Assembly: GCA_963802255.1 (NCBI GenBank)
Contig: CAWDHY010000001.1
Location: 235,842 to 299,841 of the forward strand
Length of the DNA stretch: 64,000 nt
Direction: 5' to 3'
Source: Candidatus Magasanikiibacteriota bacterium
Lineage (GTDB): Bacteria > Patescibacteriota > Patescibacteriia > Magasanikbacterales > GWA2-37-8
In this document: in pieces, positions 10,559 to 35,752 of the stretch
Numbering within the stretch: position 1 is the first letter of the stretch
Layout of the letters: every line of letters begins with the position of its first letter
Notes under the pieces: model-generated
What the model was told of the DNA's origin: nothing
Seen by the model: only the letters and a program-made list of their open reading frames with translations
Databases searched by the model: none
Position numbers and translations under genes: made by a program

Positions 10559-11245
10559 ATGGGTTTAACACCCTGCGGTTCATCCCGCAGTGCATATATG
10601 GCTGAAGAAAATCCGCATCTGTCCAAGGAACAGAAAATCGGTTTGGTTTTACTGTCTGCTTTTGTTTTGCTGGCAGTGACTCTTGGATTAATTCAAATGC
10701 GGAATACTCTGTACAGTCCTTTTGCTTTAAATACTTCTATACCGCCGATGATCGGGCAGGAAGTAAATACTCCCGAAGCTCTTCGTTATCGCGACACGGA
10801 CATGGATGGGTTAAGCGATTATGATGAATTGTATATTTTTACCACCAGCCCATATTTAGCCGATTCGGATTCAGACGGTATCACCGATAAACAGGAAATT
10901 GATCAGGGGAAAAATCCCAATTGCGCCGAAGGGAAAAATTGTATTGGTAATGTCGGAGAAAATGCGTCTACTGTTGCCGGACAAGCCGACATACCAACAC
11001 TGTTTGATTACCGCATGCCGACAACAATTGAAGAGCTAATTTCCAGCCCGGAACAAATGCGGGAGATTCTTTTGCAGTCAGGCGTGGAACAATCGGTGGT
11101 AGACCAGATATCAGACGATGATTTAATGATAATGGCCTCGGAAATTTTTGCTTCCAGCACTATTATGGGTGATATTGTCACAGCCACAAGCACGCAAAAT
11201 ACTACGGCGACGGCTCAATTTATAAACGAGATGATGTCAGAATAG
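10559..11245 (+). CDS. Membrane-anchored secreted protein with thrombospondin-type-3-like Ca-binding Asp-rich repeats
   Basis: N-terminal TM/signal anchor (IGLVLLSAFVLLAVTLGLI). DxDxDGxxDxxE motifs (DTDMDGLSDYDE, DSDSDGITDKQE). Lies directly upstream of the giant protein gene. Confidence 0.5.
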   Translation: MGLTPCGSSRSAYMAEENPHLSKEQKIGLVLLSAFVLLAVTLGLIQMRNTLYSPFALNTSIPPMIGQEVNTPEALRYRDTDMDGLSDYDELYIFTTSPYLADSDSDGITDKQEIDQGKNPNCAEGKNCIGNVGENASTVAGQADIPTLFDYRMPTTIEELISSPEQMREILLQSGVEQSVVDQISDDDLMIMASEIFASSTIMGDIVTATSTQNTTATAQFINEMMSE

Positions 11246-11260
11246 AAGAGACAACCAATT

Positions 11261-17257: not shown

Positions 17258-19637
17258 CACGGCGATACATGACTCCTCACAAACTTGCTTGAATGATTAC
17301 TCTGTTCAAACAATGCCAAAAAATAATTCTTATAAGATAATAAATCAGTCTGACTTGGGCATGGGTGATAATTCAAAATTCGCTTTTACAAATTTACCAT
17401 CTAATGTTGCGGTTTCCGGTTGTTATACAGCTGATAACGAAGGAGAATATGTATGGGGGATGGCCGCGAAATATTCAGCAGCCATGTATTGTCCGATAAA
17501 TCGTGATACTCTTATTTTGGATGGTGATAAAGGTGCGGGGCCATCGTCATGGGTAGGCGAAACAATGGCTTTATGCACATCAATTCAGGGAACGGGAACT
17601 GATGGAATGCGTTACGATGATGAACAGGAACGCTGGGAATGCGATGGCTGGAATCCTTGGCAGGATAATTACTTCACCGGTGGGCCTTACCATTGGAACA
17701 ATGCGAAATGGGCGGAAGGTTATGGATCGAAATTTTTTAACCGTAATGAGATTGAAAGAATAGATGTTTTTATTGATGAAATGAATAGCAAGGTGCGCAG
17801 TAATGGGTGGGTTAGTTTTATCCGCGATGCAGTAAATGCTGATGAAGGTGACGGAGATCGTTCATTTGTTGCGGAGCAATCGTGGGTTTATCCTGATGGC
17901 GATTCCAGTATCCATACTATTTCATTAGATGATCAAGGTAAATATGGCTGGACAGCATGGCAATATTATGGCGGCTCTGGGGCGGCTGGTTGGACTATTT
18001 CCGATGGCACAAATGACAAGGGCAGAATAATATCGCAAGGGCTGGATACCGACACCTACCATTTTGAAGATGTGGAATCAACAGCGGCAAATACCAAAAA
18101 TATTGGCATTCGTGTTGTTTGGGATGAAAGTAATAATTTACGGGGAATTTGGCTTAATTTGGAAGGAACCGATGGCGATGCTGATTATATAGGAGATGGT
18201 GACTGCGAACCTGGTTTGGACATGGGCACTGCCTTTATCATTCATTTCACTCACGGTAAGTGCAAGAAGTTTGCGCAAATATCTAATTCCGCCTCTTCAA
18301 CCGGTATTGATTTTAAACCCTATCCTAATTATTTGAATAACAATGAGGTTTCGTTATATGAATCTGACGCCTCCCGTTATCCGGGCAAAACCACGTGGGA
18401 TAATGAATTATATTACGCAAGACGAACTGATGATTTGAACGGAGGTAAATATGGCTTGGCTTTTAGTACGGAAGACGGATATGTTGATATTAGAAATAAA
18501 ACGGCGGCTTTTATTAATCCATTCACATATTACAAAAAAATTGTGCACGATAGGGAGTTTTTTCACACCCAATCAGGTGATATAAATGCAAATTATGAGT
18601 TTACCGGATATAATGCTGGTGTAGCTTTAGTTTCGGCTGATTCGCGAACAGCTAAAAGCAATAACCCCGATTTTTACGACTATACTTTTTCAGATATACC
18701 CAATTCAACTCCGTACGGTAAAATGTTAACGAAAATGTTTGCCAGAGCCGGTAGTTTTTGGGAGCTGGTTTATGATGGCGGATATAATAATGGATATTCA
18801 TCATATTATGGCAGTGTTGACGCCTCAAAACCGAGAACTTCGACGGGCCCGGTTGACCAAATGAATCGTTTTCCACCCCGTGTGGCGGCACCGTCGGGTG
18901 ATACATGGGAATTGGATAAAATATCTGTAAATGGACAAACTGAGGGGAATATTTATCTCTACTCCGGCTCGCAAACACACATAAAGTTTTATGCCTGGGC
19001 TCATGGTAATCAGATGCCGATTCGTCAAATAGTGGTAGATAAAGGCGATGCTCCGGATACGCGTATTGATTCCGGTATGGTAAGTTCCATTGGAAATCGC
19101 AAACCGGTTTGTGCTGATAAAGCGTGCGGGACAACTGCTGAACTTACTCAATATCCATGTTCCGACAGCAGTGATTGCGATGCAGGGGAAGTTGATTTAG
19201 GTACTTGTTCAATTTTAACCCATGAATATCAAAAATTTGGCAATACTGATGATACCGGGTGTAAAGCCAAGCCGTGGGATTTTGTCACTGATTATAATTG
19301 CCCTTATGGAACAATGGACATTGTGGACAATGGCGAACAAATTAGTGGCTCAAATATTGATTGGAATAAAATACGAACGGAATTTTACAATGCCCCGTAT
19401 GTCTGTCTTGCCCGTCCGCAAATATTTGTAATGGATAATTGGGGTTGGTGTGCAAGCCGTGATCCTGATGACGGCGGATGTAATTATGAAAGTAATGCTA
19501 GTGTAAAAGGATACGGCTGTTACTATGAGGCTGGAAGTAGTGGAATTATAATCAGTGTGATTATAACGATAAAAGCGAACCATGGGTTAATTATGACGGC
19601 TATGTGGTTGTGGTTCCGTTGCCCGGAAGTTAAATAA
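17070..19637 (+). CDS. Probable continuation of the giant surface protein after a +1 frameshift (855 aa), or a separate gene
   Basis: Overlaps the previous ORF by 187 nt in the +1 frame. No signal peptide or TM at its N-terminus. Same W/G/D/Y/N/C-rich composition. A terminator follows at 19676. Confidence 0.5.
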   Translation: MNLRLEYLICGILIRRRVMKLPTVRKTDLCVLKMSRYLIEIVSYASSEANGKVNLGGLLVGIDTAIHDSSQTCLNDYSVQTMPKNNSYKIINQSDLGMGDNSKFAFTNLPSNVAVSGCYTADNEGEYVWGMAAKYSAAMYCPINRDTLILDGDKGAGPSSWVGETMALCTSIQGTGTDGMRYDDEQERWECDGWNPWQDNYFTGGPYHWNNAKWAEGYGSKFFNRNEIERIDVFIDEMNSKVRSNGWVSFIRDAVNADEGDGDRSFVAEQSWVYPDGDSSIHTISLDDQGKYGWTAWQYYGGSGAAGWTISDGTNDKGRIISQGLDTDTYHFEDVESTAANTKNIGIRVVWDESNNLRGIWLNLEGTDGDADYIGDGDCEPGLDMGTAFIIHFTHGKCKKFAQISNSASSTGIDFKPYPNYLNNNEVSLYESDASRYPGKTTWDNELYYARRTDDLNGGKYGLAFSTEDGYVDIRNKTAAFINPFTYYKKIVHDREFFHTQSGDINANYEFTGYNAGVALVSADSRTAKSNNPDFYDYTFSDIPNSTPYGKMLTKMFARAGSFWELVYDGGYNNGYSSYYGSVDASKPRTSTGPVDQMNRFPPRVAAPSGDTWELDKISVNGQTEGNIYLYSGSQTHIKFYAWAHGNQMPIRQIVVDKGDAPDTRIDSGMVSSIGNRKPVCADKACGTTAELTQYPCSDSSDCDAGEVDLGTCSILTHEYQKFGNTDDTGCKAKPWDFVTDYNCPYGTMDIVDNGEQISGSNIDWNKIRTEFYNAPYVCLARPQIFVMDNWGWCASRDPDDGGCNYESNASVKGYGCYYEAGSSGIIISVIITIKANHGLIMTAMWLWFRCPEVK

Positions 19638-19675
19638 ATGAAGGATGAGTGACAGAGATAGAATGTAAAAAAATA

Positions 19676-19707
19676 AAAATCCCGACGTAAAGTCGGGATT
19701 TTTAATC
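19676..19707. terminator. Rho-independent terminator hairpin (aaaatcccgacgtaaagtcgggatttttaatc)
   Basis: 8-bp GC stem plus T-run, with an A-run on the other side making it bidirectional. Sits between the convergent giant gene and the lipoprotein gene. Confidence 0.65.
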
Positions 19708-19763
19708 AAACCAGAAATTATTTTTTAATCATTTCTTGTTTGAAAAGGCCCGGATGATGTGAA

Positions 19764-20375
19764 TCAAATGGGCCGAGGCAGGATGTTTTTGCGGTGAGGT
19801 TTGTGGACTAGGAACTGATTAGCGTTCGTAATCGTTTTCATCGTTTGCAGATTAGCACCCCAGAAATTCACGTGAAGCACGGCGGTTGAAACGGTATCGT
19901 TCCGATAGATCTTTACATGCTGATCATCTTCAGCGTTGTATGTCTCAAGCGGGAGCTCGGTGCCGAACAAAGCGTAATAAAAAGTTGCGGCGCCGGTCGA
20001 TTCCACCTTGCATTCGTCGCCGGAGACGGTTAGGATGATGGTGAGGAGGTGATCGGGAATATGCGAGTAGTTCACGATGTACCAATCGCCCTCGATGTCG
20101 TAGCATCCGTTGTCGGGGTCTTCGGTCTTCAGGCAATCGCAGGCCGTGGGGTCGTCGGTCTCGGTGTCGGTATCCGTATCGGTGTCCGAATCCGTGTCAG
20201 AATCGGTATCCGTATCGGTGTCCGAATCCGTGTCGGAATCGGTGTCGCCGTCGGCATCCCCATCCACGCAGTCGCCGTTCTCGTCCTCCACACAGTCGTC
20301 GCCCTCGTCGCAAGCGGTGACGAACGCGGCCATCATGACGATGGCCATGAGCGCGAAAATGTTTCTCATCGTCAT
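19764..20375 (-). CDS. Putative lipoprotein with an acidic (D-T/D-S)n dipeptide repeat region; GC-rich compositional outlier
   Basis: Signal peptide with a lipobox-like AFVTAC. Residues ~36-75 are GDADGDTDSDTDSDTDTDTD... The DNA in the first half of the gene is visibly GC-rich compared with its neighbours. Confidence 0.5.
   Translation of the reverse strand: MTMRNIFALMAIVMMAAFVTACDEGDDCVEDENGDCVDGDADGDTDSDTDSDTDTDTDSDTDSDTDTDTDTETDDPTACDCLKTEDPDNGCYDIEGDWYIVNYSHIPDHLLTIILTVSGDECKVESTGAATFYYALFGTELPLETYNAEDDQHVKIYRNDTVSTAVLHVNFWGANLQTMKTITNANQFLVHKPHRKNILPRPI
20151..20270. repeat. Imperfect 6/12-nt tandem coding repeats (gtcggtatccgtatcggtgtccgaatccgtgtc...) encoding the (DT/DS)n tract
   Basis: Directly visible periodicity. 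The antisense frame gives a spurious SVSVSESVS ORF. Confidence 0.6.
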
Positions 20376-23845: not shown

Positions 23846-23846
23846 T

Positions 23847-24833: not shown

Positions 24834-24886
24834 GAAAAGTTCTTTACAATCAAAATTGACGCCACAGAAGAGATAGGAGGTTGATA

Positions 24887-26203: not shown

Positions 26204-26282
26204 ATGGGAATTGTCACCAAAATTGTATGTGTCAAATAATAAGTCTAGCGATTTTTTTCAGCTTTTTTTGGATGTTCCTCCC

Positions 26283-26316
26283 GGCGCACTAATCACGATT
26301 AGTGCGCCGTTTTTTT
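26283..26316 (+). terminator. Rho-independent terminator (ggcgcactaatcacgattagtgcgcc + T8)
   Basis: Perfect 9-bp stem and T-run directly after the LysRS-like gene. Confidence 0.75.
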
Positions 26317-26354
26317 ACTAGTTTTCTGTGGATAAAATTAATCGGCATTTAGCT

Positions 26355-26383
26355 TTGTGGACGCAACTCTTTTGTGGTATAAT
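26355..26383 (+). promoter_or_regulatory. Promoter: TTGTGG-17-TGgTATAAT
   Basis: ttgtggacgcaactcttttgtggtataat lies 30 nt upstream of the 26413 ATG. Confidence 0.4.
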
Positions 26384-26412
26384 ATATATGTAAATTAAGC
26401 CAATCGGCTGAT

Positions 26413-29235
26413 ATGTTTAATTCCCTTCGTATAAAGGGAAAAATTCTTTGGGATGTCATAAAACCGCGCAACCGGCTGGGTTTATTGTCGGCTGTTTTTG
26501 TAGTGTCCGCATTGCTTGTACTCATTTTTGTTGTTGGTCCTCAGGCATACGCCTCATCAATTGGCGATGATATCGCCAGTATGATCGGGGAGTTGTTTTT
26601 ATGGATTGCGACAAAACTATTATCCCTTACTGTTTTCTTATTAAAATTTGTAATAGAAATTGCGAGCTACAACAATTACATCAATTCCGGAGCAGTCACG
26701 CTTGGCTGGATTTTAGTGCGCGATGTGACGAATATGTTTTTCGTCATCATTTTGATGGTCATCGCTTTTGGTACTGTGCTCGGCATTGAACAATATGAAT
26801 GGAAAAAATTATTGGTTAAATTTGTAATGGCGGCTATACTTGTAAATTTTTCCCGCGTTATTTGCGGAGTGATAATTGACGCGGCTCAAGTTTTTATGAT
26901 GACTTTTATTTCCGGCGTGGCTGCAGTTGCCGGCGGAAATCTTATCAACGCTTTAAAATTGGAGAGTATTTTGTCATACAGCAAGAACACTTCAGCCGAG
27001 GCTATGAAGCATATGAATGTTGTGGTCACTTCCATGTTCGCTTGTGTTTTCGCTTTTGCCACAGTGGTAGTTATGGGCGCGTATCTGGTGGTACTGATCG
27101 GACGCGCCATTACACTATGGGTGCTGATTATTTTATCGCCATTGTCCTTTGTGTTAAGTGTCATTCCAAAAACTCAGCAATATGCTTCGCAGTGGTGGAG
27201 TGAATTTAGCAACAACGTAATTGTCGGTCCGGTGCTTGCATTTTTTCTTTGGCTGGCGTTTGCCGTGGCCGGTGGGTCGGATGTTCATCAGGAGTTCTCA
27301 AGTGGTTCGGCATATCCGATGACAGACCCGGCGTCAGAGCAGGCGGCGATAGAGGCCATGGGTGCGCAGTCAGCCACAGAATCATCAGGTACAAATTTGA
27401 GCGCGGTGATGGAGTGGGATAATATGGCCAGTTTTATCATTGCCGTTGGCCTGCTTTTAGCCGGCGTCAAAACCGCGCAAAAACTTGGCACTGCCGGAGC
27501 CGGAGCGCTTGGTGCGGCCGGCGGAGCAGTCACTGGATTTGCTATGGCCGCGACCGGTGTGACCGCGGCCAGATGGGCGGCCAGAACGGGTGTGGGCGCG
27601 GCAAAAAGAGGGGCGATGAAAGCCGGAAAATTTGTTGCTATGAAAGCGCCGGTGGTTGGTGGTGATGCGTGGAAGAGGAGGGGGAGATCGATAAAGGCGG
27701 GTGTAGCGGAAAAATATCAGGATGTGATGAGGGGATATGAAGGAGCGACGAATAAATTGCGGAAAGGAAAGGGCTGGCGTCGTGCCTTGGGTTCTGTAGC
27801 GCCTTTAACGAGTTTTCAAAAAGAAAAAGATGTTCAGTTTAGAGAATCCATGGCAAAGGTAGCCAAAGAAGAGCGTGAAGAGTTGCATGGTAGGGGTGGA
27901 ACAGAACTCGGTAAAAGAGCCGGCAGAAGAAAGAAACACTTGGAACATGTGATTGAAGAAGAGGACTTTAATAAAAAAGCCGGTCTTATGCTTGCTGAAG
28001 CCGATGCATATAAGCGTGTCGGTAAAAATGAAATGGCGCAGAAAATATATAATGACCGGGATGCGATGATTTATGACAGAAAAATGAAACAGGATGTCGC
28101 CCACATGGACTATCCGCAATTAATGGGTGCGGCAGAAGCCGGCGCTCAAGCAACGGCGGATATAAAGAAAAAAATTGTAGAAGAGTATGGCAAAGGTGAT
28201 AAAGCTGATAAAAGTAAAATAGACGGCTATAGTGAAAAATTAAATGAGCAGCAATTACATAATACGCGACTTTTGGCACACGCAAGAGGAATGGGCGGCG
28301 CGACTGCTACGGATGTTAACAAAATGCTTTCTTCCTTTTCAGGCCAAGATGACACCGACCATAGCGCGGCAGCCGAGGCATCGCGGGTTTATGGTCTTGA
28401 CGCGAATAAGGAAAATGAGAAAAAAATATTAGAAGATTTAGTAAAAAAGTTTGGAAATAGCGGGCAGAATCAGGCGGCGATGAGCGCATTAGCAAAAGCA
28501 AATGCCGCTCTGATTAAGACCGATGCAACAAAAATTGGCGCAGCCGCTTCAATTAGCGAGGGAGTTGTAATTGATGAAAGGACAGGAGTAAGAAATGTTG
28601 TGCGAGGTTTCGGGAGGGGTGTTGGTGATTTTGATATAAAAGGAAAAAATCGAAAAGAAGAATATGAAAGATTGGATGAAAAAGAGAATCTCGCATTGCT
28701 GAGTGGGGATATTGAAAAAGCCGAGAAATTAGGAATAGAAAAAAAGGAACATGAATCAAATTCTTTTGAGACCAGTGAAGCAAAGGCCAAATATTTTAGT
28801 GAGGTTGCCGCAGTATCGTATCGGGAATCTACCGATGCTAACAGTATTGTTAGTTCGGCAAAAAGGGACTCGCAAGGAAATATCACTGATGTCGTAAAGT
28901 TTGATGACCGTCAGTTGGAGTCAATGAGCCGTTACCTTGGCGCCACGCCAGCCACTCAGATGAAGAAGGCTTTTCCACCGAGCATGATTGAGGCATTAAA
29001 TAAAATGGCGATGAGTGGAGAAAATGCCGCCTTTTTACTTAAAAGGTTGTCATCAAAAATGACCGATGATAATCAAATAAAGGCGCTCACGTCATTACTT
29101 GGGGGAATTGCCGGTAAAAGACCGGCGCAAGAAGCACAAACAACACCAGGAGGAAAAGCCCAGGCGGCGCGTGCGGCGACAGAAGAGAGTGATGAAATCG
29201 AAGCAGAAGAAGATGCAAAGTTTAACAAAAAATAA
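26413..29235 (+). CDS. VirB6/TrbL-like polytopic membrane protein with a long charged/coiled C-terminal extension (T4SS-like component)
   Basis: 940 aa. Multiple N-terminal TM helices over the first ~270 aa, then a Gly/Ala-rich segment, then a K/E/A-rich tail. The architecture matches VirB6/TrbL-type proteins. A VirB4 homolog lies downstream. Confidence 0.45.
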   Translation: MFNSLRIKGKILWDVIKPRNRLGLLSAVFVVSALLVLIFVVGPQAYASSIGDDIASMIGELFLWIATKLLSLTVFLLKFVIEIASYNNYINSGAVTLGWILVRDVTNMFFVIILMVIAFGTVLGIEQYEWKKLLVKFVMAAILVNFSRVICGVIIDAAQVFMMTFISGVAAVAGGNLINALKLESILSYSKNTSAEAMKHMNVVVTSMFACVFAFATVVVMGAYLVVLIGRAITLWVLIILSPLSFVLSVIPKTQQYASQWWSEFSNNVIVGPVLAFFLWLAFAVAGGSDVHQEFSSGSAYPMTDPASEQAAIEAMGAQSATESSGTNLSAVMEWDNMASFIIAVGLLLAGVKTAQKLGTAGAGALGAAGGAVTGFAMAATGVTAARWAARTGVGAAKRGAMKAGKFVAMKAPVVGGDAWKRRGRSIKAGVAEKYQDVMRGYEGATNKLRKGKGWRRALGSVAPLTSFQKEKDVQFRESMAKVAKEEREELHGRGGTELGKRAGRRKKHLEHVIEEEDFNKKAGLMLAEADAYKRVGKNEMAQKIYNDRDAMIYDRKMKQDVAHMDYPQLMGAAEAGAQATADIKKKIVEEYGKGDKADKSKIDGYSEKLNEQQLHNTRLLAHARGMGGATATDVNKMLSSFSGQDDTDHSAAAEASRVYGLDANKENEKKILEDLVKKFGNSGQNQAAMSALAKANAALIKTDATKIGAAASISEGVVIDERTGVRNVVRGFGRGVGDFDIKGKNRKEEYERLDEKENLALLSGDIEKAEKLGIEKKEHESNSFETSEAKAKYFSEVAAVSYRESTDANSIVSSAKRDSQGNITDVVKFDDRQLESMSRYLGATPATQMKKAFPPSMIEALNKMAMSGENAAFLLKRLSSKMTDDNQIKALTSLLGGIAGKRPAQEAQTTPGGKAQAARAATEESDEIEAEEDAKFNKK

Positions 29236-29268
29236 GATGCAAGTGATATATTTTCCATTTTAACGAAT

Positions 29269-30372
29269 ATGCGGAACTATAATCCACAGCAAAACAGTCA
29301 AACAAATTTTGCAGAATTGCAAAAAGATTTTTTTGAAACCGATATATTGGCGCCGGATGCTTTTGCGCCTATCAAAAAAGATTTGATTGATTATTTTAAT
29401 TCCGCCGACGCATCCGCTAAGAAAAATAGCAGGCAATTTTGGTTGTTGAACGTATATGCTACCTGGAAGTTCATTAATCAGCTTTCTCCGACTGAAGTAA
29501 TTGATTTTATGGTGGAACAAATTCCTGATGCCATACGGCTGGGATTTGATGTGACTGATAAATTGATCTGGTATATGGGGTTGAATGTTAATGATTTGGA
29601 AAATAGGATGATTTTTTATTCCGAGATAAGAACAAAAATTCTGACAGGAGATTTCTTTATTGACTCAGCCGGAAAAGAAATGACAATGAAAGATCTTTTC
29701 CAACAGATTCGCCTGCTTGACAGTTATGCGAATGACGCCATGCGGGCAGCTGAATTATATGAAAAGATTCAGCGAACATTATTCGCCGGTACGGAGAATG
29801 ATTCAATATATGAGTATTTAATAATTGACCACAGAGAGGCGGTAGAAAAAATGGTTGATTTGGTTAGCTTTATCAATACAGTAGAACCGGATAAGATTTG
29901 GGAAACGGTAGAAGGCGCCATATTTATTGAAACCACACAAACATCGCCGGATGAAGTGCCTGTACCGGTGGTGGAAAAACCGGAAATAATCAGACCGACA
30001 CCCGAATTGGAAATGAAAGCAAAGGCGCTTGCGGCTGCTGATATGAAACCGGGTTCAACTGAAAAACCTGTAAATTTGGCGACGGAGCCGGCAAAGCAAG
30101 CGGAACCTAAAAAATCTTTTCAACCGCCAAAATCTGTCCAGCCACCAAAGCCGGCAGAACCGGTACAACCAGTTACGCCAGTTAAGCCGTCCTATGCAGA
30201 AATTCGCAGAAAAATTGAAGCTGTGTTTCCGAAAGACGCGCAGGGTGAGTATACAAATTTAGACAGTTTACTTGCCGCTCTGCAGAGCGCAGCTGAGAAA
30301 TACAACGATCCGAAAATTTCCGAACTGATGTATTTTGACGAATCTGACAATAAATTTAAATGGAGCATATAA
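29269..30372 (+). CDS. Hypothetical protein with a C-terminal Pro/Lys-rich linker (T4SS-like cluster)
   Basis: 367 aa. PEPxKP repeats (KSFQPPKSVQPPKPAEPVQPVTPVKPS). No known domain. Confidence 0.4.
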   Translation: MRNYNPQQNSQTNFAELQKDFFETDILAPDAFAPIKKDLIDYFNSADASAKKNSRQFWLLNVYATWKFINQLSPTEVIDFMVEQIPDAIRLGFDVTDKLIWYMGLNVNDLENRMIFYSEIRTKILTGDFFIDSAGKEMTMKDLFQQIRLLDSYANDAMRAAELYEKIQRTLFAGTENDSIYEYLIIDHREAVEKMVDLVSFINTVEPDKIWETVEGAIFIETTQTSPDEVPVPVVEKPEIIRPTPELEMKAKALAAADMKPGSTEKPVNLATEPAKQAEPKKSFQPPKSVQPPKPAEPVQPVTPVKPSYAEIRRKIEAVFPKDAQGEYTNLDSLLAALQSAAEKYNDPKISELMYFDESDNKFKWSI

Positions 30373-30373
30373 T

Positions 30374-31357
30374 ATGGCTGAAAGTACAATGATTACGATA
30401 AAAAGACCGGATGGGACCATAGAAAAAATTTCTTTGGCAGAATTTATGGCGCGTAAGAAAAAAAAGACGGATGTGCCGGCGGCTTCTAAACCGGCCGTTG
30501 TCGTGGCTCCCGTAGTATCTGCGCCGCAAAAGACAAAACCGTCGATTCAGCCTTCAGAGTCCGTACCAAAGAATTTGCGCCCGCTGAACCATTCAAATAT
30601 TAAATCGCTTGTATCTGAAATTGTTAAGTCAAAGCCGATTGAAAAGTCGGCGACAACACCAAAAGTATCGGTTCCGGTTGTTGTGCCACCTGAAATAAAA
30701 AGGACTGAAGAGAAAAAAATATTTGTTCCGCAAAAACCCGTGGTTAATCCGCCGTCGGTTTCACGTTTTGAAAAATCTGACGCCGCTTCATTGCTTGATG
30801 AAGAAGTTCCACCCCCTGCGACAGTCAATAAACCATTGATCAAACCAATGGGAATGCCTACCGCCTTGATGAAAGAGAATGAAAACATCTTGCCGTCAAC
30901 CTCAGCCCCTGTAAATACTTTCGTGCATGCGCCTCAAACAATGCGAACTATGCAACCCCGTCATGAATCTGCTTTAAACAAGGAGAAGGATATAACAGCT
31001 CCGCCGGTCAGGCCGATGGTCCGTGATATATTTCCGGTGAAGCCATCAAACTTGGGGCCGGTTGATGAGATTGAATTTTTTACTTTAACTGATTTCCGGC
31101 GTTTATCTTCAAATCCGCCTGAAGCGGCGTCGCGTCTCAAACAGAAATTTTTGAATTTACGCGATGAATCGTATGTCTTGTTTATTGATGGCCTTGCCGC
31201 CTGGCGCCAGAGTCCGTTGTTTATTGAATATTCCGGTGCGGTCACTGAGGCATTAAATACAAAGAAGAAATTGTCGGACGTATTATTGTCTGACCCGAAT
31301 AAAATACAAATGAATGAAATTCAGGCTATAATACAAATGGAAAAAGATTTGATATAG
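30374..31357 (+). CDS. Hypothetical Pro-rich protein (T4SS-like cluster)
   Basis: GGAG RBS at 30362 and ATG at 30374 (MAESTMITIKRPDG). The ORF-track start at 30335 overlaps the upstream gene. Pro/Val/Ser-rich middle region. Confidence 0.4.
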   Translation: MAESTMITIKRPDGTIEKISLAEFMARKKKKTDVPAASKPAVVVAPVVSAPQKTKPSIQPSESVPKNLRPLNHSNIKSLVSEIVKSKPIEKSATTPKVSVPVVVPPEIKRTEEKKIFVPQKPVVNPPSVSRFEKSDAASLLDEEVPPPATVNKPLIKPMGMPTALMKENENILPSTSAPVNTFVHAPQTMRTMQPRHESALNKEKDITAPPVRPMVRDIFPVKPSNLGPVDEIEFFTLTDFRRLSSNPPEAASRLKQKFLNLRDESYVLFIDGLAAWRQSPLFIEYSGAVTEALNTKKKLSDVLLSDPNKIQMNEIQAIIQMEKDLI

Positions 31358-31363
31358 CGTCCT

Positions 31364-31795
31364 ATGCAAACACAATTTGTTGTGCCACAATTTATAGATG
31401 TTGAAGATAAGATTTTTGGTCCGGTTACGGCCAGGCAATTTGTGATATTACTTACCGCCGGCTTAACGTTATTTGTCGCTTTCAAACTTGCTGATTTCGC
31501 ATTATTCATTTTTTTAGCCGCGGTAATCGGTGGAGGAGCCCTGATTATCGCTTTTGTGAAAATTAACGGCCAGGCCTTTCATTATTTTTTGCTAAATATT
31601 ATTCAGACATTGAGGCGGCCTGCCTTGCGGATTTGGAATAAAGTTTATGAGACGAGTGAAATTAAGCGCATGCTTGCCGAGGGAATAGTGACAATACCGG
31701 AAGCGGCCAAACCGATTCCTCGGCTCTCATATAGCCGCATCCGCGATTTATCGCTGACAGTGAATACAGGCGGTTATTATCAGGCGGAAGATTAG
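31364..31795 (+). CDS. Small two-TM membrane protein, VirB3/PrgI-like candidate
   Basis: 143 aa with two hydrophobic helices (FVILLTAGLTLFVAFKLADFALFIFLAAVIGGGALIIAFV). Lies immediately upstream of the VirB4-like genes, as in Gram-positive-type T4SS. Confidence 0.35.
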   Translation: MQTQFVVPQFIDVEDKIFGPVTARQFVILLTAGLTLFVAFKLADFALFIFLAAVIGGGALIIAFVKINGQAFHYFLLNIIQTLRRPALRIWNKVYETSEIKRMLAEGIVTIPEAAKPIPRLSYSRIRDLSLTVNTGGYYQAED

Positions 31796-31819
31796 AAAAA
31801 ATATTAAAAAAGGTTGAGT

Positions 31820-32506
31820 ATGAAAAATAAAAAAGCAATAAATAAACGGGCGGCAATGTCAACGGCACAGAAAAATTTGTCTATTGCCGAGATCAAGAAT
31901 GATACCGTGGTGATGAAAGACGGAACTTTGCGGTCCGTGCTTATGGTTTCCAGCATTAATTTTTCCCTTAAAAATGAAGATGAACAGCAGGCGATTGTTT
32001 CATCATATGTGTCTTTTTTAAACGGCCTGGATCATCCATTACAAATAAATATTCAATCGCGTCAGCTTAACGTAAAACCGTATCTGGAAAAATTGGCAAA
32101 AAAAGAACGGGAACAGCCAAACGAACTTTTGAGAATGCAAATCGCTGATTACCGGTCGTTTGTTTCCGAACTGGTAAGCCTGGGCAAAATTATGAGCAAG
32201 CTTTTTTACGTAATTGTTCCATACGACCCGCTTTCAAACAAAAAACGCGGTTTCTGGTCGCGCGCTTCAGAGGTTATCAATCCGGCGATAACCGTGCGGC
32301 TGAAAGAAGAAAGGTTTATGAAAAGAAAATATGATTTGGATATGCGGGTGCGCCAGATTGAATCCGGCCTCACCAGTATGGGCTTGGAAGTGGTGCGTCT
32401 CGACACGCAATCATTAATAGAGCTTTTTTATACCACCTATAATCCGGATATTGCATTGTCCGAACCGCTCGCGTCGCTTGAAACATTAAACGTGGAAAAC
32501 ACATAA
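31820..32506 (+). CDS. VirB4-like N-terminal domain protein (apparent split of VirB4)
   Basis: ~228 aa, ending 4 nt before the ATPase ORF in a different frame. The two ORFs together (~850 aa) are VirB4-sized. Confidence 0.35.
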   Translation: MKNKKAINKRAAMSTAQKNLSIAEIKNDTVVMKDGTLRSVLMVSSINFSLKNEDEQQAIVSSYVSFLNGLDHPLQINIQSRQLNVKPYLEKLAKKEREQPNELLRMQIADYRSFVSELVSLGKIMSKLFYVIVPYDPLSNKKRGFWSRASEVINPAITVRLKEERFMKRKYDLDMRVRQIESGLTSMGLEVVRLDTQSLIELFYTTYNPDIALSEPLASLETLNVENT

Positions 32507-32510
32507 AAAT

Positions 32511-34379
32511 ATGGCATTTAAACCATCTGCGATTAGAGAACAAAAGCAGGCTACCAACAAACTTCATACTGAAACAAGCCAATTAAAGAAACAGGCGGCT
32601 GAAGAATTGGTAACGCTTGAAGAAGAAAAGATATATCGTGAAGGAGTGGTGTCTATCCGTGATTTAGTAGCACCGTCCGCTTTTCGTGTTGAATCGAGCT
32701 TTGTTCAACTTGGCGATGTTTTTTGCCGCACACTTTTTATCACCGCTTATCCGCGTTATATTTCCATTGGCTGGGCGTCTCCTGTCATCAATCTTTCCGT
32801 TACCATGGATTTGTCCATGTTTTTCTATCCGGTTAAATCTGCAGTGATTTTAAAACAATTAAAAAATAAAGTCGGTGCGCTTGAGGCGCAAATTAATGCC
32901 GATACGGAAAAAGGCGCTCCGCGTGATCCGATCCGTGAAACTGCATTGCGGGATATTGAACAGCTGCGTGATGATTTAACACAGGGCACGGAACATTTTT
33001 TTCAATTTTGTTTTTACGTTACGATATACGCGCGTAAAAGAGAAGAATTGGATCAGACAAGCGAGGATATAGAAAATATTTTCGGCGGCAAGCTCATTAT
33101 GACCCGCAAGGTGTTGTACCAATCGGAGCAGGGTTTTAATTCCACATTGCCTTTGTGCAATGACGAATTATATATCGCTTTTAACATGAACAGCTCCCCG
33201 ATTGCCGCATCTTTTCCGTTTATTTCCGCTGAATTGACATCTGACGACGGCATTCTTTATGGCATCAACCGGCATAATAACAGTTTGATATTATTTGAAA
33301 GATTTTCTCTGCAAAATGCCAATATGGTGGTTTTCGCCACGTCCGGCGCTGGTAAAAGTTACGCTATAAAGCTGGAAATTTTGCGTACCATGATGATGGG
33401 AGTTGATGTAATAGTTATTGACCCGGAAATGGAATACAAGCATTTAAGCGACGCGGTCGGCGGAACTTATGTCAACATCTCTCTTTCATCAGAGGCAAAA
33501 ATTAATCCGTTTGATTTGCCGCGTCCGATGGGTATGGAAATATCCACTGAAGACGTGATACGCGGCGCGGTTATTACTATGAAAGGGCTTTTGCGTATCA
33601 TGCTTGGTGGTTTAACGGTTGAGCAGGATGCGATTATTGACCGCGCTCTTATTGAAACCTATGCTAAAAAAGATATTACACCTGATGCTGATTTAGCCAC
33701 TGTGAAACCGCCGATTATGCAGGATTTGGTGGAAATATTAGAGGGAATGCAGGGTTCTGAAGAACTGGTACTGAAATTGCAGAAATATACGGAAGGAACT
33801 TTTAGCGGTCTGTTTAATTCGCCGACCAATGTTGACATGAAAAATCAGCTGGTTATTTATTCTGTCCGCGATCTTGAAGAAGAACTACGGCCGATTGCCA
33901 TATACTCAATCATAAATTATATTTGGAATGTTGTCCGTTCTGAAAGGAAAAAAAGAATATTGGTTATTGACGAAGCTTGGTGGCTGATGATGCACGAAGA
34001 TTCGGCGCGATTTATCTATGCATTGGTAAAGCGGTGCCGGAAATACTATTTGGGCGTCACTACCATTACTCAGGATGTCAACGACTTTCTAAAATCTCAG
34101 TACGGCCAGGCGATTGTGACCAACTCCGCTCTGCAATTACTTCTGCGTCAGTCGCCGGCATCAATTGACCTGATACAAAAAGTATTCGTACTTACTGACA
34201 GCGAAAAATATTTACTTTTGGAGTCTGGCGTCGGTGAGGGAATATTCTTTGCCGGCCGAAAGCATGCCGCCATCAAGATAGTGGCGTCTTACACTGAAGA
34301 TCAGATAGTTACCACAAATCCGGAACAGCTTTTAGCCATTGAAAAAGCCAAAAAAGAATTTAACGCGGAAAATAAATAA
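32511..34379 (+). CDS. VirB4/TraE/TrbE-family type IV secretion ATPase (ATPase domain)
   Basis: Walker A VVFATSGAGKSYAIK. Walker B ILVIDEAWWLMMHEDSARF. Downstream TITQDVNDF. 622 aa. Confidence 0.7.
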   Translation: MAFKPSAIREQKQATNKLHTETSQLKKQAAEELVTLEEEKIYREGVVSIRDLVAPSAFRVESSFVQLGDVFCRTLFITAYPRYISIGWASPVINLSVTMDLSMFFYPVKSAVILKQLKNKVGALEAQINADTEKGAPRDPIRETALRDIEQLRDDLTQGTEHFFQFCFYVTIYARKREELDQTSEDIENIFGGKLIMTRKVLYQSEQGFNSTLPLCNDELYIAFNMNSSPIAASFPFISAELTSDDGILYGINRHNNSLILFERFSLQNANMVVFATSGAGKSYAIKLEILRTMMMGVDVIVIDPEMEYKHLSDAVGGTYVNISLSSEAKINPFDLPRPMGMEISTEDVIRGAVITMKGLLRIMLGGLTVEQDAIIDRALIETYAKKDITPDADLATVKPPIMQDLVEILEGMQGSEELVLKLQKYTEGTFSGLFNSPTNVDMKNQLVIYSVRDLEEELRPIAIYSIINYIWNVVRSERKKRILVIDEAWWLMMHEDSARFIYALVKRCRKYYLGVTTITQDVNDFLKSQYGQAIVTNSALQLLLRQSPASIDLIQKVFVLTDSEKYLLLESGVGEGIFFAGRKHAAIKIVASYTEDQIVTTNPEQLLAIEKAKKEFNAENK

Positions 34380-34417
34380 TTATGTCCGCGCCGGCCGGCG
34401 TTAATATTAAATAATAT

Positions 34418-35008
34418 ATGACAACACTCCGATCCCGTTTATTCATCTTTATCAGTTTGGTGGTTTTGGTAATACTTGCCATAAGCATTGCCATTATTGT
34501 GTTTGTAAAACAGAAAGCGGCGGCGCCCGAAGAACAACCTGTTGAGGATACCTCGCAGATTGATTCGACAAATTTCCCGGTACAATTGACTCCGGAGCCG
34601 GTTAATATTCCGGCCGGGACACAAGTTAAACCGTTGACTACGGATGAGGCACTCAAAAACGGGGCAAAACAGATGGCTAAAATATTCACTGAGCGTTACG
34701 GCACATATTCATCCGACAGTGATTTTGCGAATGTTAGAGAAGTAGAATCATTAGTCACTAAAAGTTATTGGTCTGAACTTGAAAAAACAATCGGAACAGG
34801 AAAGCCGGCGATGTTCATTGGTGTAACTACCAATGCGGTGGCTTCCGAAGTCGCTGAATACGGAGGCGGAAAAGCGACAGTCAATGTATCTGTTCAGAAA
34901 ACAACGACCAGAGGGTCAAGCGTTACAGAATCCAGCGAAAAAGCGAAAGTATGGCTTATACAAAGCGGTGGTGTCTGGTTGGTTGATGATTTTGAATGGG
35001 TCAAATAG
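34418..35008 (+). CDS. Hypothetical N-terminally membrane-anchored protein
   Basis: 196 aa. TM helix LFIFISLVVLVILAISIAIIVFV, then a soluble domain with no recognisable motifs. Confidence 0.4.
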   Translation: MTTLRSRLFIFISLVVLVILAISIAIIVFVKQKAAAPEEQPVEDTSQIDSTNFPVQLTPEPVNIPAGTQVKPLTTDEALKNGAKQMAKIFTERYGTYSSDSDFANVREVESLVTKSYWSELEKTIGTGKPAMFIGVTTNAVASEVAEYGGGKATVNVSVQKTTTRGSSVTESSEKAKVWLIQSGGVWLVDDFEWVK

Positions 35009-35023
35009 ATTAAAAAAATATTA

Positions 35024-35046
35024 AGACGCCCGCAAGGGCGTCTTTG
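35024..35046 (+). terminator. Terminator hairpin (aagacgcccgcaagggcgtcttt)
   Basis: 8-bp GC stem with a gcaa tetraloop-like loop, directly after the stop at 35008. Confidence 0.6.
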
Positions 35047-35050
35047 TGAT

Positions 35051-35752
35051 ATGATTATTAAATTAATTAAAGAAATATTGTTTCCCGTTTTTTGCATTGA
35101 GTGCGGTGAAGAAGGGGAGTGGTGGTGCAAGCAGTGTTTTGAAAATAGCTTTATCAGCGTGGTTTTAAGATGCCCCGGCTGTGGCAAGACCAATCACGGT
35201 GAGACTTGCCAGGTGTGCAGAAGTTCTGTTTTTTTGGACGGCACCATAGCTTTAATGGAATATGCGGAGACAAAGCCGGCAGGAAAATTAATAAAAAATT
35301 TTAAATATAAATTTGCTCACGATACCCGGCCAGCTTGGGAAATGATCGCGGATAAATGCATACCGAAAATAATTTTGCCGGACAATGGTGTCATCACACC
35401 GGTACCGCTATATCCCAGGCGGGAAAGAGAACGCGGGTTTAACCAGTCGGATATTCTTGCCGGAATTTTTTTTGATAAAATTAAAAAATATTTTCCCGAA
35501 AGAAAATATGAAATAAATAATAAAATTCTCCGGCGCACGCGCGCCACAAATCAGCAAGCTAAGTTATCAAGAGAAGAACGTGAAAGAAATGTCAGCGGAG
35601 CCTTTTGCGTTAAAAATAAAATAGTCCCTTATTCTGTAATATTGGTTGATGATATTTTTACGACCGGTGCGACATTAAATGAATGCGCAAAAGAATTAAA
35701 ACAGAATGGAGTAAAAAAAGTCTGGGCGTTAACTTTGGCCAGGACTACCTGA
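35051..35752 (+). CDS. ComF-family phosphoribosyltransferase (ComFC-like) with an N-terminal double zinc ribbon
   Basis: CIECGEEGEWWCKQC...CPGCGKTNHGETCQVC zinc-ribbon cysteines. PRTase motif VILVDDIFTTGATLNE. 233 aa. Confidence 0.7.
   Translation: MIIKLIKEILFPVFCIECGEEGEWWCKQCFENSFISVVLRCPGCGKTNHGETCQVCRSSVFLDGTIALMEYAETKPAGKLIKNFKYKFAHDTRPAWEMIADKCIPKIILPDNGVITPVPLYPRRERERGFNQSDILAGIFFDKIKKYFPERKYEINNKILRRTRATNQQAKLSREERERNVSGAFCVKNKIVPYSVILVDDIFTTGATLNECAKELKQNGVKKVWALTLARTT

What the first reader, a model, noticed from the sequence alone, without database searches (positions are those of the whole stretch)
26413..35752. T4SS-like/competence-associated cluster: VirB6-like, two Pro-rich proteins, VirB3-like, split VirB4, anchored protein, ComFC
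Genes for a polytopic VirB6/TrbL-like protein with a very long charged tail, a Walker A/B VirB4-family ATPase, small membrane proteins and ComFC are co-directional and tightly spaced. CPR bacteria often carry such minimal VirB4/VirB6 systems, which have been proposed to mediate DNA uptake or host-cell interaction. The Pro-rich linker proteins are uncharacterised.
Basis: partly seen in the sequence, partly recalled or inferred. Interest (0 to 1): 0.55.

Follow-up and report, generated by a model that had tools for sequence, protein, structure and literature searches.

The report
Patescibacterial type IV secretion operon with comFC
This is the chromosomal, non-conjugative type IV secretion gene cluster typical of ultrasmall CPR/Patescibacteria (here a Magasanikbacterium), with the DNA-uptake gene comFC as its last gene; the arrangement was published in 2025, so it is real but ordinary.

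Summary
Eight co-directional genes at 26413-35752, 1-42 nt apart, encode:
- an extended VirB6/TrbL-like membrane protein
- two proline-rich orphan proteins
- PrgI (VirB3-like)
- TrsD (the VirB4 N-terminal part as a separate protein)
- a VirB4 ATPase of the Gram-positive CD1110/MPF-FATA type
- a membrane-anchored protein whose predicted fold is VirB8-like
- ComFC

The organism is a Candidatus Magasanikbacterium (Patescibacteria). I take it to belong to GTDB class ABY1.

In 80 related loci the block keeps the same order while its flanks differ. comF follows the VirB8-like gene directly in 55 of 61 loci that have enough downstream sequence. The TrsD/VirB4 split is present in nearly all of them, so it is not a pseudogene.

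The 64-kb window holds no coupling protein, relaxase, integrase, cell-wall hydrolase or pilin array.

Quinonero-Coronel et al. 2025 (PMC12102498) already describe this system, including the comF association and VirB8 homologues in ABY1.

Its function is unproven. I favour a VirB4-driven translocon at the host contact site. Nucleic-acid import handed to ComFC is an attractive but untested sub-hypothesis.

What I add is small: structural support for the VirB8-like protein, a widespread orphan component (gene C), and numbers for the comF linkage.

Novelty: already known. Interest about 0.28.

The parts
26282..26309 (+). Intrinsic terminator closing the upstream LysRS-like gene. It marks the left boundary of the T4SS transcription unit.
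   Evidence: 12-bp stem with 7 GC pairs followed by TTTTTTT.
26355..26383 (+). Candidate promoter of the cluster: TTGTGG, 17 nt, then TGgTATAAT (extended -10).
   Evidence: Read directly from the sequence. The scan tool did not call it because the -35 hexamer matches only 3 of 6 positions. This is inferred, not shown.
26413..29235 (+). A: extended VirB6/TrbL-like polytopic membrane protein. It has a signal-peptide-like N-terminus, about 8 TM segments in residues 1-360, and a 540-aa K/E/A-rich tail that evolves fast.
   Evidence: Pfam TrbL E 0.0046 over profile positions 2-190 of 215; NCBIfam CD3337/EF1877 E 5e-5. Five of 32 orthologue N-terminal domains hit TrbL, the best at 1.9e-11. TM scan. 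The core, residues about 40-440, aligns in about 46 loci; the tail aligns only in the 1-2 closest relatives.
29269..30372 (+). B: orphan protein with a globular N-terminal region, a Pro-rich linker (about residues 204-334) and a conserved 60-aa C-terminus. It has no TM segment and no signal peptide.
   Evidence: No Pfam, NCBIfam or PDB relatives. Only 15 database homologues, all named hypothetical. Found in 24 of 80 loci, always between A and C.
30374..31357 (+). C: conserved orphan component. It has an N-terminal beta-hairpin plus helix (residues 1-31), a disordered Pro-rich linker of about 190 aa, and a C-terminal helical domain (residues 225-327).
   Evidence: AlphaFold2 model: C-terminal domain pLDDT about 96, linker below 60. 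No PDB fold match, no Pfam hit for any of 36 members, no PDB profile hit. Present in 64 of 80 loci, directly upstream of prgI. The C-terminal domain has 1675 representative relatives at E<=1e-3; in the 150 best that were listed it always sits at the C-terminus.
31364..31795 (+). D: PrgI-family (VirB3-like) membrane protein with two TM segments.
   Evidence: PF12666, E 5.5e-9, 36.9 bits, above the cut-off of 27. Two TM segments. Found in 70 of 80 loci.
31814..32506 (+). E: TrsD/TraD-like protein, i.e. the N-terminal part of VirB4 encoded as a separate polypeptide.
   Evidence: NF041427 TrsD E 2.8e-8. It also matches the N-terminal segments of two full-length VirB4 models (CD1110 positions 10-94; Mbov_0397 positions 90-219). 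A separate ORF of about 226 aa is present in 71 loci.
32511..34379 (+). F: VirB4 ATPase of the MPF-FATA/CD1110 type, lacking the N-terminal segment that E carries.
   Evidence: NF045971 E 1.2e-106, 357.8 bits, above the cut-off of 325, model positions 158-730 of 752. PDB 4AG5 at 6.6e-47. Walker A at residues 278-283 and Walker B at 483. The nearest plasmid VirB4s are from Firmicutes and Actinobacteria at 27-34% identity.
34418..35008 (+). G: VirB8-like bitopic protein with a TM helix (residues 4-33), a disordered linker (32-61) and an NTF2-like alpha+beta domain (75-195).
   Evidence: AlphaFold2 mean pLDDT 76.9, about 90 in the C-terminal domain. The top Foldseek hits in the PDB are the PrgL VirB8 domain 7AED (2e-5), CagV 6IQT, TcpC 3UB1, R388 TrwG 8RTD and A. 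tumefaciens VirB8 2CC3. No sequence-family hit. Found in 66 of 80 loci, directly after virB4.
35023..35044 (+). GC-rich hairpin (9-bp stem, GCAA loop) between G and comF. It has no T-run on the + strand.
   Evidence: It could be an RNA-stability or attenuation element; this was not tested. In most relatives the G-comF spacer is 50 nt or less.
35051..35752 (+). H: ComFC, with a double zinc ribbon plus a PRTase-like domain. It is the last gene of the block and overlaps the convergent gene 35745-37313 by 8 nt.
   Evidence: TIGR00201 E 1.5e-29 over model positions 1-190 of 190; GntX E 3.4e-24. Four CxxC pairs and VILVDDIFTTG. A profile of the orthologues hits H. pylori ComF 7P0H at 3e-5 over its full length. 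Adjacent to G in 55 of 61 loci.
10559..20375 (.). Probably associated surface-protein genes: a TM + TSP3-repeat protein (10559-11245), a 1998-aa secreted Cys-rich protein (11261-17257), an 855-aa protein (17070-19637) and a 203-aa D/T-rich lipoprotein-like gene on the - strand (19764-20375).
   Evidence: In the closest relatives (L001, L002, L006, L012 and others) homologues of these genes lie directly upstream of the virB6-like gene. In L019, L020, L023, L066 and L078 the TSP3 protein lies directly upstream of gene C. The association rests on synteny only.

Best explanation
The cluster is the chromosomal type IV secretion system (T4SS) of the Patescibacteria clade. It derives from the conjugation machinery of monoderm bacteria (MPF-FATA) and appears here in the arrangement I take to be typical of GTDB class ABY1.

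Shown by sequence or predicted fold:
- It encodes the cytoplasmic-membrane core of a T4SS: a VirB6-like channel subunit, the VirB3-like PrgI, a two-piece VirB4 motor (TrsD + VirB4) with intact Walker motifs, and a VirB8-like bitopic protein.
- It also encodes two lineage-specific proline-rich proteins and, as the last gene, ComFC.

Inferred:
- By analogy with solved T4SS structures, PrgI and TrsD dock the VirB4 hexamer under a VirB6/VirB8 membrane platform.
- ATP hydrolysis by VirB4 drives assembly and passage of macromolecules across the single membrane at the contact site with a host cell.
- Because the window has no relaxase or coupling protein, the system is not a conjugative DNA exporter.
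- Because comFC is an integral, tightly spaced member of the block, the cargo handled in this lineage most likely includes nucleic acid moving inward. ComFC would receive single-stranded DNA on the cytoplasmic side, much as the H. pylori ComB system works with ComFC.

Direction and cargo are not shown. I put about 0.9 on the identity, about 0.6 on a host-contact translocon function, and about 0.3 on ComFC-coupled nucleic-acid import.
For: Component identities.

Taxonomy: Magasanikbacteria.

Conserved block with variable flanks: in 80 loci, VirB4 was found in 80, TrsD in 73, PrgI in 70, G in 66, ComF in 66, C in 64 and A in 48. The window's neighbouring genes were found in at most 7 loci.

Operon-like spacing: the median G-comF spacer is 13.5 nt and comF is adjacent in 55 of 61 loci. 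A terminator and a promoter-like site sit upstream of A.

Not a mobile element: GC content matches the surroundings. No T4CP, relaxase, integrase, VirB1-like hydrolase or pilin array was found in 64 kb.

Literature:
- The Patescibacteria VirB4 clade nests in MPF-FATA. TrsD, PrgI and VirB6 are widespread, relaxases are rare, and ABY1 loci commonly include comF (PMC12102498).
- The T4SS is essential for epibiotic growth of S. epibionticum and lacks a recognisable coupling protein and relaxase (PMC10633639).
- Import of nucleic acid has been proposed as a role (PMC11665869; PMC12102498).
Against: There are no functional data for any ABY1 organism.

In Saccharibacteria, deleting comEC abolishes transformation but not growth, whereas the T4SS is essential. 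The essential role of the T4SS there therefore does not run through the classical competence channel.

The comF linkage is confined to the ABY1-type loci. It was not seen in the five most distant loci (L065, L067, L069, L074, L080).

The linkage could reflect co-regulation or inherited gene order rather than physical cooperation.

In this genome a hairpin separates G from comF.

A coupling protein may be encoded elsewhere in the 628-kb contig. The 2025 survey finds VirD4 homologues far from virB4 in most genomes.

The VirB6 assignment for A itself is below Pfam's threshold.
Confidence: 0.75

Rival explanations
1. The system is an effector or toxin exporter. It injects proteins into the host cell or secretes them at the interface, as the Xanthomonas and Streptococcus suis 89K systems do. 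On this view comFC is only a co-transcribed or hitch-hiking neighbour with its usual role in ComEC-dependent transformation.
For: Reviews name effector delivery as a leading speculation for Saccharibacteria (PMC11665869; PMC10633639). B and C have no export signals and carry long disordered regions, so they could be substrates or adaptors. Large secreted Cys-rich proteins are syntenic with the cluster.
Against: No candidate effector or immunity pairs were recognised in the block. comF is kept adjacent, on the same strand and often within a few nucleotides, across VirB4 identities from 96% down to about 66%. That is hard to explain by chance neighbourhood when all other flanks turn over.
Confidence: 0.3
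2. The machine serves adhesion or pilus biogenesis only. It assembles a surface filament or adhesin complex that holds the epibiont on its host, without moving cargo.
For: VirB2-like pilin arrays are common and essential in other Patescibacteria. Tubular structures at the interface have been reported in a cultivated relative (bioRxiv 10.64898/2026.06.21.733656). Giant surface proteins are syntenic here.
Against: A screen of small ORFs for TM segments found no pilin-like array of small two-TM ORFs anywhere in the 64-kb window. The ComFC linkage is unexplained by this model.
Confidence: 0.12
3. The cluster is a remnant or active part of an integrated conjugative element that exports DNA.
For: The closest non-CPR relatives of the VirB4 are on conjugative elements of Firmicutes and Actinobacteria. 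The gene order VirB6-PrgI-x-VirB4 matches a Clostridium plasmid.
Against: The window has no relaxase, coupling protein, integrase or cell-wall hydrolase. The flanks are housekeeping genes and GC content is uniform. The block appears to be inherited vertically across the related loci. Identity to plasmid VirB4s is only 27-34%. The 2025 survey reaches the same conclusion.
Confidence: 0.04
4. The cluster is not a T4SS at all but an FtsK/HerA-type DNA pump with unrelated membrane proteins.
For: DUF87/HerA and AAA_10 give modest hits on the P-loop region.
Against: The VirB4-specific model scores 357.8 bits, above its curated cut-off, and the solved VirB4 domain 4AG5 is hit at 6.6e-47. PrgI, TrsD, a VirB6-like protein and a VirB8-like protein all lie in the same block.
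Confidence: 0.01

Closest known systems
Patescibacteria-clade T4SS (Quinonero-Coronel et al. 2025, PMC12102498; S. epibionticum SEML1_0006-0019, Wang et al. 2023, PMC10633639)
   Same: It has a chromosomal location, a VirB4 of MPF-FATA ancestry, a separate TrsD next to VirB4, PrgI/VirB3 and VirB6, and no nearby relaxase or coupling protein. For class ABY1 specifically, comF lies in the locus and VirB8 homologues are detectable.
   Different: No VirB2-like pilin array or peptidoglycan hydrolase lies next to virB4 here, unlike in Saccharimonadia. The locus adds two Pro-rich orphan genes (B, C) that the paper does not discuss. In my set comF is an integral operon member (55 of 61 loci), whereas recG and radA are only occasional neighbours (7 and 6 of 80 loci).
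MPF-FATA conjugative T4SS of Firmicutes, CTn2/CD1110 subclass (e.g. Clostridium botulinum pCDC3875, locus L081) and pGO1/pSK41 TrsC-TrsD-TrsE
   Same: F scores above the curated cut-off of the CD1110 VirB4 model. The order VirB6-like, PrgI, (x), VirB4 is the same. A separate TrsD protein exists in the pGO1 subclass.
   Different: Identity is only 27-34%. The plasmid encodes a VirD4-like coupling protein, an SLT hydrolase, a MOBP relaxase and a single-chain 797-aa VirB4. The window has none of these, has a much longer VirB6-like protein, and ends with comFC.
Helicobacter pylori ComB DNA-uptake T4SS working with ComEC and ComFC
   Same: It is a T4SS without relaxase or coupling protein that serves DNA import, and ComFC is needed to handle the incoming single strand (cited in PMC10633639 and PMC11665869). 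It is a functional analogy for a T4SS-ComFC partnership.
   Different: ComB is a diderm MPF-T-type system with VirB7, VirB9 and VirB10, and comFC is not part of its operon (from my own knowledge). Here the VirB4 is of the monoderm type. There is no experimental link.
Archaeal Ced DNA-import system (CedA/CedB)
   Same: It uses a VirB4/HerA-like ATPase to import DNA between cells.
   Different: F scores only 52 bits on the CedB model (cut-off 700) and 23 bits on CedD, so it is not a member.
Extended VirB6 proteins (Rickettsiales VirB6 paralogues, F-plasmid TraG)
   Same: They combine a polytopic VirB6 core with a large hydrophilic C-terminal extension of unknown role (FEMS review PMC12857230).
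   Different: The tail here is K/E/A-rich and shows no detectable homology to those extensions. It is conserved only in its presence, not in its sequence.

Membership tests
VirB4 (T4SS signature ATPase), MPF-FATA / CD1110 type | Whole-protein score above the curated cut-off of a VirB4-specific model | tested here: met
   NF045971: 357.8 bits against a cut-off of 325, E 1.2e-106. PDB VirB4 domain 4AG5 hit at 6.6e-47.
VirB4 (T4SS signature ATPase), MPF-FATA / CD1110 type | Intact Walker A and Walker B motifs | tested here: met
   SGAGKS at residues 278-283 and ILVIDE at residue 483.
VirB4 (T4SS signature ATPase), MPF-FATA / CD1110 type | Placement inside the monophyletic Patescibacteria clade in a VirB4 tree | not tested
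   No tree was built. Indirect support: the 80 best genomic relatives are almost all labelled Patescibacteria or are unclassified MAGs, and plasmid VirB4s reach at most 34% identity.
Patescibacteria-clade T4SS locus | A separate TrsD-like gene next to virB4 | tested here: met
   E hits TrsD at 2.8e-8 and the N-terminal segments of full-length VirB4 models. It lies 4 nt upstream of F. A separate ORF is present in 71 loci.
Patescibacteria-clade T4SS locus | PrgI/VirB3 homologue near virB4 | tested here: met
   PF12666: 36.9 bits, above the cut-off of 27.
Patescibacteria-clade T4SS locus | VirB6/TrbL homologue | tested here: inconclusive
   A itself scores 17-19 bits, below the Pfam cut-off of 25.9, though the alignment spans 2-190 of 215 profile positions. 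Five of 32 syntenic orthologues hit TrbL at E <= 0.01, the best at 1.9e-11. A profile of the family did not find solved VirB6 chains.
Patescibacteria-clade T4SS locus | No relaxase and no coupling protein associated with the cluster | tested here: met
   None was found among the ORFs of 110 aa or more scanned in the 64-kb window. The rest of the 628-kb contig could not be read.
Patescibacteria-clade T4SS locus | VirB2-like pilin genes near virB4 (frequent, not universal) | tested here: not met
   The small-ORF TM screen found only SecE, PrgI and implausible ORFs. The screen is crude and no pilin HMMs were run on small ORFs.
VirB8 family | Bitopic topology with an N-terminal TM helix and a C-terminal NTF2-like domain | tested here: met
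   The AlphaFold2 model has a TM helix at 4-33 and an alpha+beta domain with pLDDT about 90. VirB8-family structures dominate the Foldseek top hits: PrgL 7AED, CagV, TcpC, TrwG and At VirB8.
VirB8 family | Sequence-profile match to VirB8 or PrgL | tested here: not met
   No Pfam or NCBIfam VirB8-type hit at E <= 1. CONJScan PrgL profiles were not available. G is therefore filed as VirB8-like by fold, not as a sequence-family member.
ComFC / ComF | N-terminal four-Cys zinc finger plus a C-terminal PRTase-like domain with a PRPP loop | tested here: met
   CxxC at residues 15, 26, 41 and 53; VILVDDIFTTG at 196. DZR_2 and Pribosyltran Pfam hits.
ComFC / ComF | Full-length match to ComF models or to a solved ComF | tested here: inconclusive
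   TIGR00201 aligns over positions 1-190 of 190 at 1.5e-29, but at 103 bits it is below the curated cut-off of 233. A profile of the orthologues hits H. pylori ComF 7P0H over its full length at 3e-5, whereas other PRTases match only the PRPP loop.
ComFC / ComF | ssDNA binding and a requirement for transformation | not testable with these tools
   This needs experiments.
Conjugative element (ICE or plasmid T4SS) | Relaxase, coupling protein and integrase or replication module linked to the MPF genes | tested here: not met
   None in the window. The flanks are housekeeping genes: LysRS-like, GreA, tRNA-Ser, KsgA, RF, SMC and rRNA.
Archaeal Ced DNA importer | CedB-type ATPase | tested here: not met
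   52 bits against a cut-off of 700.

The most novel reading that the evidence does not exclude
In ABY1 Patescibacteria the T4SS membrane core and ComFC would form one nucleic-acid import machine. The TrsD/VirB4 motor would pull host-derived DNA (or RNA) through the VirB6/VirB8 platform. ComFC would take the place of the missing coupling protein and relaxase as the cytoplasmic receiver. The conserved orphan protein C, and B where present, would act as flexible proline-rich tethers or adaptors. This would be a ComEC-independent or ComEC-assisting route by which these organisms, which lack nucleotide synthesis, feed on host nucleic acids.
Probability: 0.15. Interest if true: 0.75.

Novelty: already known. 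Interest (0 to 1): 0.28.

Why it matters
The role of the type IV secretion system in Patescibacteria is an acknowledged open question. The system is essential in the one species tested, yet its cargo and direction are unknown. The ABY1 arrangement, with comFC fixed at the end of the operon, is the most direct genomic hint that the machine handles nucleic acid.

That hint, the component list and the non-conjugative interpretation were all published in 2025, so this window adds an example rather than a discovery.

The modest additions could help anyone designing interaction or structure studies:
- Fold-level confirmation of a VirB8-like subunit.
- A widespread orphan subunit with a confidently predicted helical domain that has no structural match.
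- Figures showing that comF, unlike recG and radA, is an integral part of the block.

Tried and rejected
- **Gene C.** The structure prediction gave a confident C-terminal helical domain, but Foldseek against the PDB found nothing at E <= 0.001. No Pfam hit appeared in any of 36 family members, and there was no PDB profile hit. Its function stays unknown.
- **Gene B.** It has only 15 homologues, no Pfam domains and one low-complexity PDB hit. Profile-profile comparison with C shows no relationship.
- **VirB6 against solved structures.** A profile of the family did not retrieve any solved VirB6/TrwI chain, and the single sequence did not either. The VirB6 call therefore rests on Pfam TrbL hits.
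- **TrsD against the PDB.** Nothing was found.
- **ComF against the PDB.** The single sequence matched only PRPP loops of other PRTases. The orthologue profile was needed to reach H. pylori ComF.
- **Replication origin near the cluster.** DnaA-box matches are at chance level (20 found, 16 expected). The GC-skew sign change near 3 kb coincides with a gene-strand switch, so I make no claim about the origin.
- **Pilin search.** The screen of small ORFs for TM segments found nothing convincing. Its sensitivity is limited.
- **Mobile-element reading.** Rejected.
- **FtsK/HerA reading.** Rejected.

Full report
**Observation**

The region 26413-35752 carries eight co-directional ORFs on the + strand, separated by 33, 1, 6, 18, 4, 38 and 42 nt.
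- A strong intrinsic terminator (26282-26309) closes the upstream LysRS-like gene.
- A TTGTGG-17-TGgTATAAT promoter-like site (26355-26383) precedes the first gene.
- The last gene overlaps a convergent membrane-protein gene by 8 nt.
- GC content (0.41-0.46) does not differ from the rest of the window.

**Identity of the parts**

*A (940 aa).*
- It has a signal-peptide-like N-terminus and about eight hydrophobic segments within residues 1-360.
- Its 540-aa tail is about one third charged residues.
- Its own Pfam TrbL/VirB6 hit is weak (E 0.0046, below the gathering score) but spans profile positions 2-190 of 215. NCBIfam gives the Gram-positive 'mobilome membrane protein' CD3337/EF1877 at 5e-5.
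- When the N-terminal domains of 32 syntenic orthologues were scanned, five hit TrbL, the best at 1.9e-11. The family is therefore VirB6-like.
- The core (residues about 40-440) aligns in about 46 loci. The tail aligns only in the closest one or two relatives, although a long tail is always present; the median protein length is about 1025 aa.

*D, E and F.*
- D is a PrgI-family (VirB3-like) two-TM protein, scoring above the Pfam threshold.
- E matches TrsD/TraD and the first roughly 100-200 positions of full-length VirB4 models.
- F matches the CD1110 VirB4 model at 357.8 bits (cut-off 325) over positions 158-730 of 752. It also matches the solved VirB4 C-terminal domain 4AG5 at 6.6e-47.
- E and F together tile a complete VirB4.
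- F has Walker A (SGAGKS, 278-283) and Walker B (ILVIDE, 483).

*G (196 aa).*
- G has no sequence family.
- An AlphaFold2 model (pLDDT about 90 in the C-terminal domain) shows a TM helix, a disordered linker and an alpha+beta cone.
- The best PDB matches are the VirB8 domain of PrgL (pCF10), CagV, TcpC, R388 TrwG and Agrobacterium VirB8.

*H.*
- H is ComFC: four CxxC pairs, a PRPP loop and a full-length TIGR00201 alignment at 1.5e-29.
- A profile of its orthologues reaches the H. pylori ComF structure 7P0H over its full length.

*B and C.*
- Both are proline-rich and have no TM segment, signal peptide or known family.
- C is predicted to have a small N-terminal beta-hairpin/helix, a disordered linker of about 190 aa and a very confident C-terminal helical domain.
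- That domain has no fold match in the PDB, yet it has 1675 representative relatives in the 1.84-billion-protein library. In the 150 best that were listed it sits at the C-terminus.
- B has only 15 homologues and is unrelated to C.

**Organism and conservation**
- A scan of one genome per species found 80 loci encoding relatives of F. The nearest are Candidatus Magasanikbacteria (96% identity), followed by Uhrbacteria and Falkowbacteria (NCBI lineage).
- I take these to fall in GTDB class ABY1. That assignment comes from my own knowledge, not from a tool.
- The window's own proteins occur 100% identical on a public 628,439-bp contig.
- The order A-B-C-D-E-F-G-H is conserved. F was found in 80 loci, E in 73, D in 70, G in 66, H in 66, C in 64, A in 48 and B in 24. 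The window's flanking genes recur in at most 7 loci.
- TrsD and VirB4 are separate ORFs of about 226 and about 625 aa in more than 70 loci. The 'split' is therefore the normal state of the family and not a frameshift.
- comF lies directly after the VirB8-like gene in 55 of 61 loci that have enough downstream sequence. The median spacer is 13.5 nt.
- By contrast, recG and radA occur in only 7 and 6 loci, at variable distance and orientation. The other neighbours are assorted housekeeping genes such as SUF, ZnuA and YibE/F.
- The five most distant loci (VirB4 identity 46-54%) show no recognisable G or comF next to virB4.

**What is absent**
- Pfam and NCBIfam scans of the ORFs of 110 aa or more examined across the 64-kb window found only housekeeping functions and large surface proteins. 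They found no VirD4/TcpA coupling protein, relaxase, integrase or VirB1-like hydrolase.
- A crude screen found no array of small two-TM pilin-like ORFs.
- The nearest plasmid-borne VirB4s are from Firmicutes and Actinobacteria at 27-34% identity.
- One such plasmid locus is Clostridium botulinum pCDC3875. It shows the ancestral layout: VirD4, VirB6, PrgI, a hypothetical gene, a single-chain 797-aa VirB4 and an SLT hydrolase, on a plasmid typed with a MOBP relaxase.
- Against that layout the window has lost the conjugation-specific parts. It has also split VirB4, lengthened VirB6, inserted B and C, and appended comFC.

**Comparison with the literature**

Quinonero-Coronel et al. 2025 (PMC12102498) analysed 3,035 Patescibacteria genomes and reported the following:
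- A monophyletic VirB4 clade nested in MPF-FATA.
- TrsD as the most abundant associated component.
- PrgI/VirB3 and VirB6 homologues.
- Very few relaxases, and coupling proteins mostly far from virB4.
- VirB8 homologues almost only in class ABY1.
- ABY1 loci that 'commonly include' comF, recG and radA, which the authors read as functional coordination.

Wang et al. 2023 showed that the T4SS is essential for epibiotic growth of S. epibionticum and lacks a recognisable coupling protein and relaxase. Reviews call its role 'completely unknown' and mention both effector delivery and nucleic-acid import. The finding is thus a correct recognition of a system that is already described.

**Mechanism**

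Shown:
- The genes encode the cytoplasmic-membrane core of a monoderm T4SS plus ComFC.

Inferred from solved T4SS structures and family knowledge:
- PrgI and TrsD dock the VirB4 hexamer to a VirB6/VirB8 platform.
- VirB4 ATPase activity powers assembly and translocation.

Inferred from gene content:
- The system is not conjugative.

Inferred from the fixed comFC linkage:
- In this lineage the system probably cooperates with ssDNA handling, most simply by importing nucleic acid from a host or from lysed cells. H. pylori ComB working with ComFC is a precedent.

Counter-evidence:
- In Saccharibacteria the T4SS is essential but comEC is not, so the essential function there is not classical transformation.
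- The comF linkage is lineage-restricted.
- This genome has a hairpin between G and comF.

My probabilities are about 0.9 for identity, about 0.6 for a host-contact translocon and about 0.3 for ComFC-coupled import. The rival readings are effector export (0.3), adhesion or pilus only (0.12), conjugative remnant (0.04) and HerA/FtsK pump (0.01).

**Novelty and score**

The kind, the arrangement and the interpretation are all published, so the novelty is 'already known'. My additions are small:
- Fold-level support for the VirB8-like subunit.
- Recognition of gene C as a widespread, structurally unmatched T4SS-linked orphan.
- Quantification of the comF linkage against recG and radA.
- Synteny between the cluster and giant surface-protein genes.

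Interest is 0.28. The most novel reading still open is a single T4SS-ComFC nucleic-acid import machine. I give it about 0.15 probability and 0.75 interest if true.

**Dead ends**
- No fold or family was found for B and C.
- No solved VirB6 or TrsD relatives were found by sequence.
- There is no DnaA-box cluster.
- No pilins were found.

Noticed in passing
window 20376-26400: A roughly 6-kb block separates the virB6-like gene from the surface-protein genes that lie directly upstream of it in the closest relatives (L001, L002). It holds a HIT protein (- strand), an AsnRS-catalytic-domain-only/AsnA-like protein (374 aa), a SAM methyltransferase, an LdcA/S66 (MccF-like) peptidase and a divergent LysRS-like protein (440 aa; 275 bits against a cut-off of 468). 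All the aaRS-like hits are below the curated cut-offs. Homologues of the 374-aa protein also sit just upstream of virB6 in L004, L029, L030, L033 and L058. It could be a cassette for aminoacyl-nucleotide metabolism or resistance, or simply housekeeping paralogues.
   Followed up: partly
window 10559-20375: Four genes here are syntenic with the T4SS block in relatives: a TM + TSP3-repeat protein, a 1998-aa secreted Cys-rich protein with a CBM_4_9 hit, an 855-aa protein whose ORF overlaps the giant gene by 188 nt, and a D/T-rich lipoprotein-like gene. They are candidate host-adhesion partners.
   Followed up: partly
L079 7409-11089: The VirB4 of this related MAG is 1226 aa because an intein of about 560 aa, carrying LAGLIDADG-type motifs, is inserted right after the Walker A lysine (GAGK|S...VHN|S).
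   Followed up: partly
L035, L036, L037, L038, L059 (between trsD and virB4): In five related loci 5.6-7.7 kb of other sequence separates trsD from virB4, although the rest of the order is kept. The content of the insert was not identified.
   Followed up: no
window 58829-60477: The 16S rRNA gene spans 1649 nt against a 1533-position model, so it probably carries an insertion. Insertions in CPR rRNA genes are known from the literature. A weak extra tRNA-like hit lies at 60849-60929 between tRNA-Val and tRNA-Ile.
   Followed up: no
window 26327-26335 (- strand): The only perfect DnaA-box 9-mer (TTATCCACA) in the window lies between the upstream terminator and the putative promoter of the T4SS operon. 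About 0.5 perfect matches are expected by chance in a window of this size (my own estimate), so this is probably meaningless.
   Followed up: partly
window 35745-37313 (- strand): A 522-aa protein with about 11 TM segments and no Pfam or NCBIfam family converges on comF and overlaps it by 8 nt. Homologues follow comF in 7-8 related loci.
   Followed up: no
window 38572-44361: This ORF encodes a second giant protein (1929 aa) with an MBG domain, downstream of greA. It is probably another surface adhesin.
   Followed up: no
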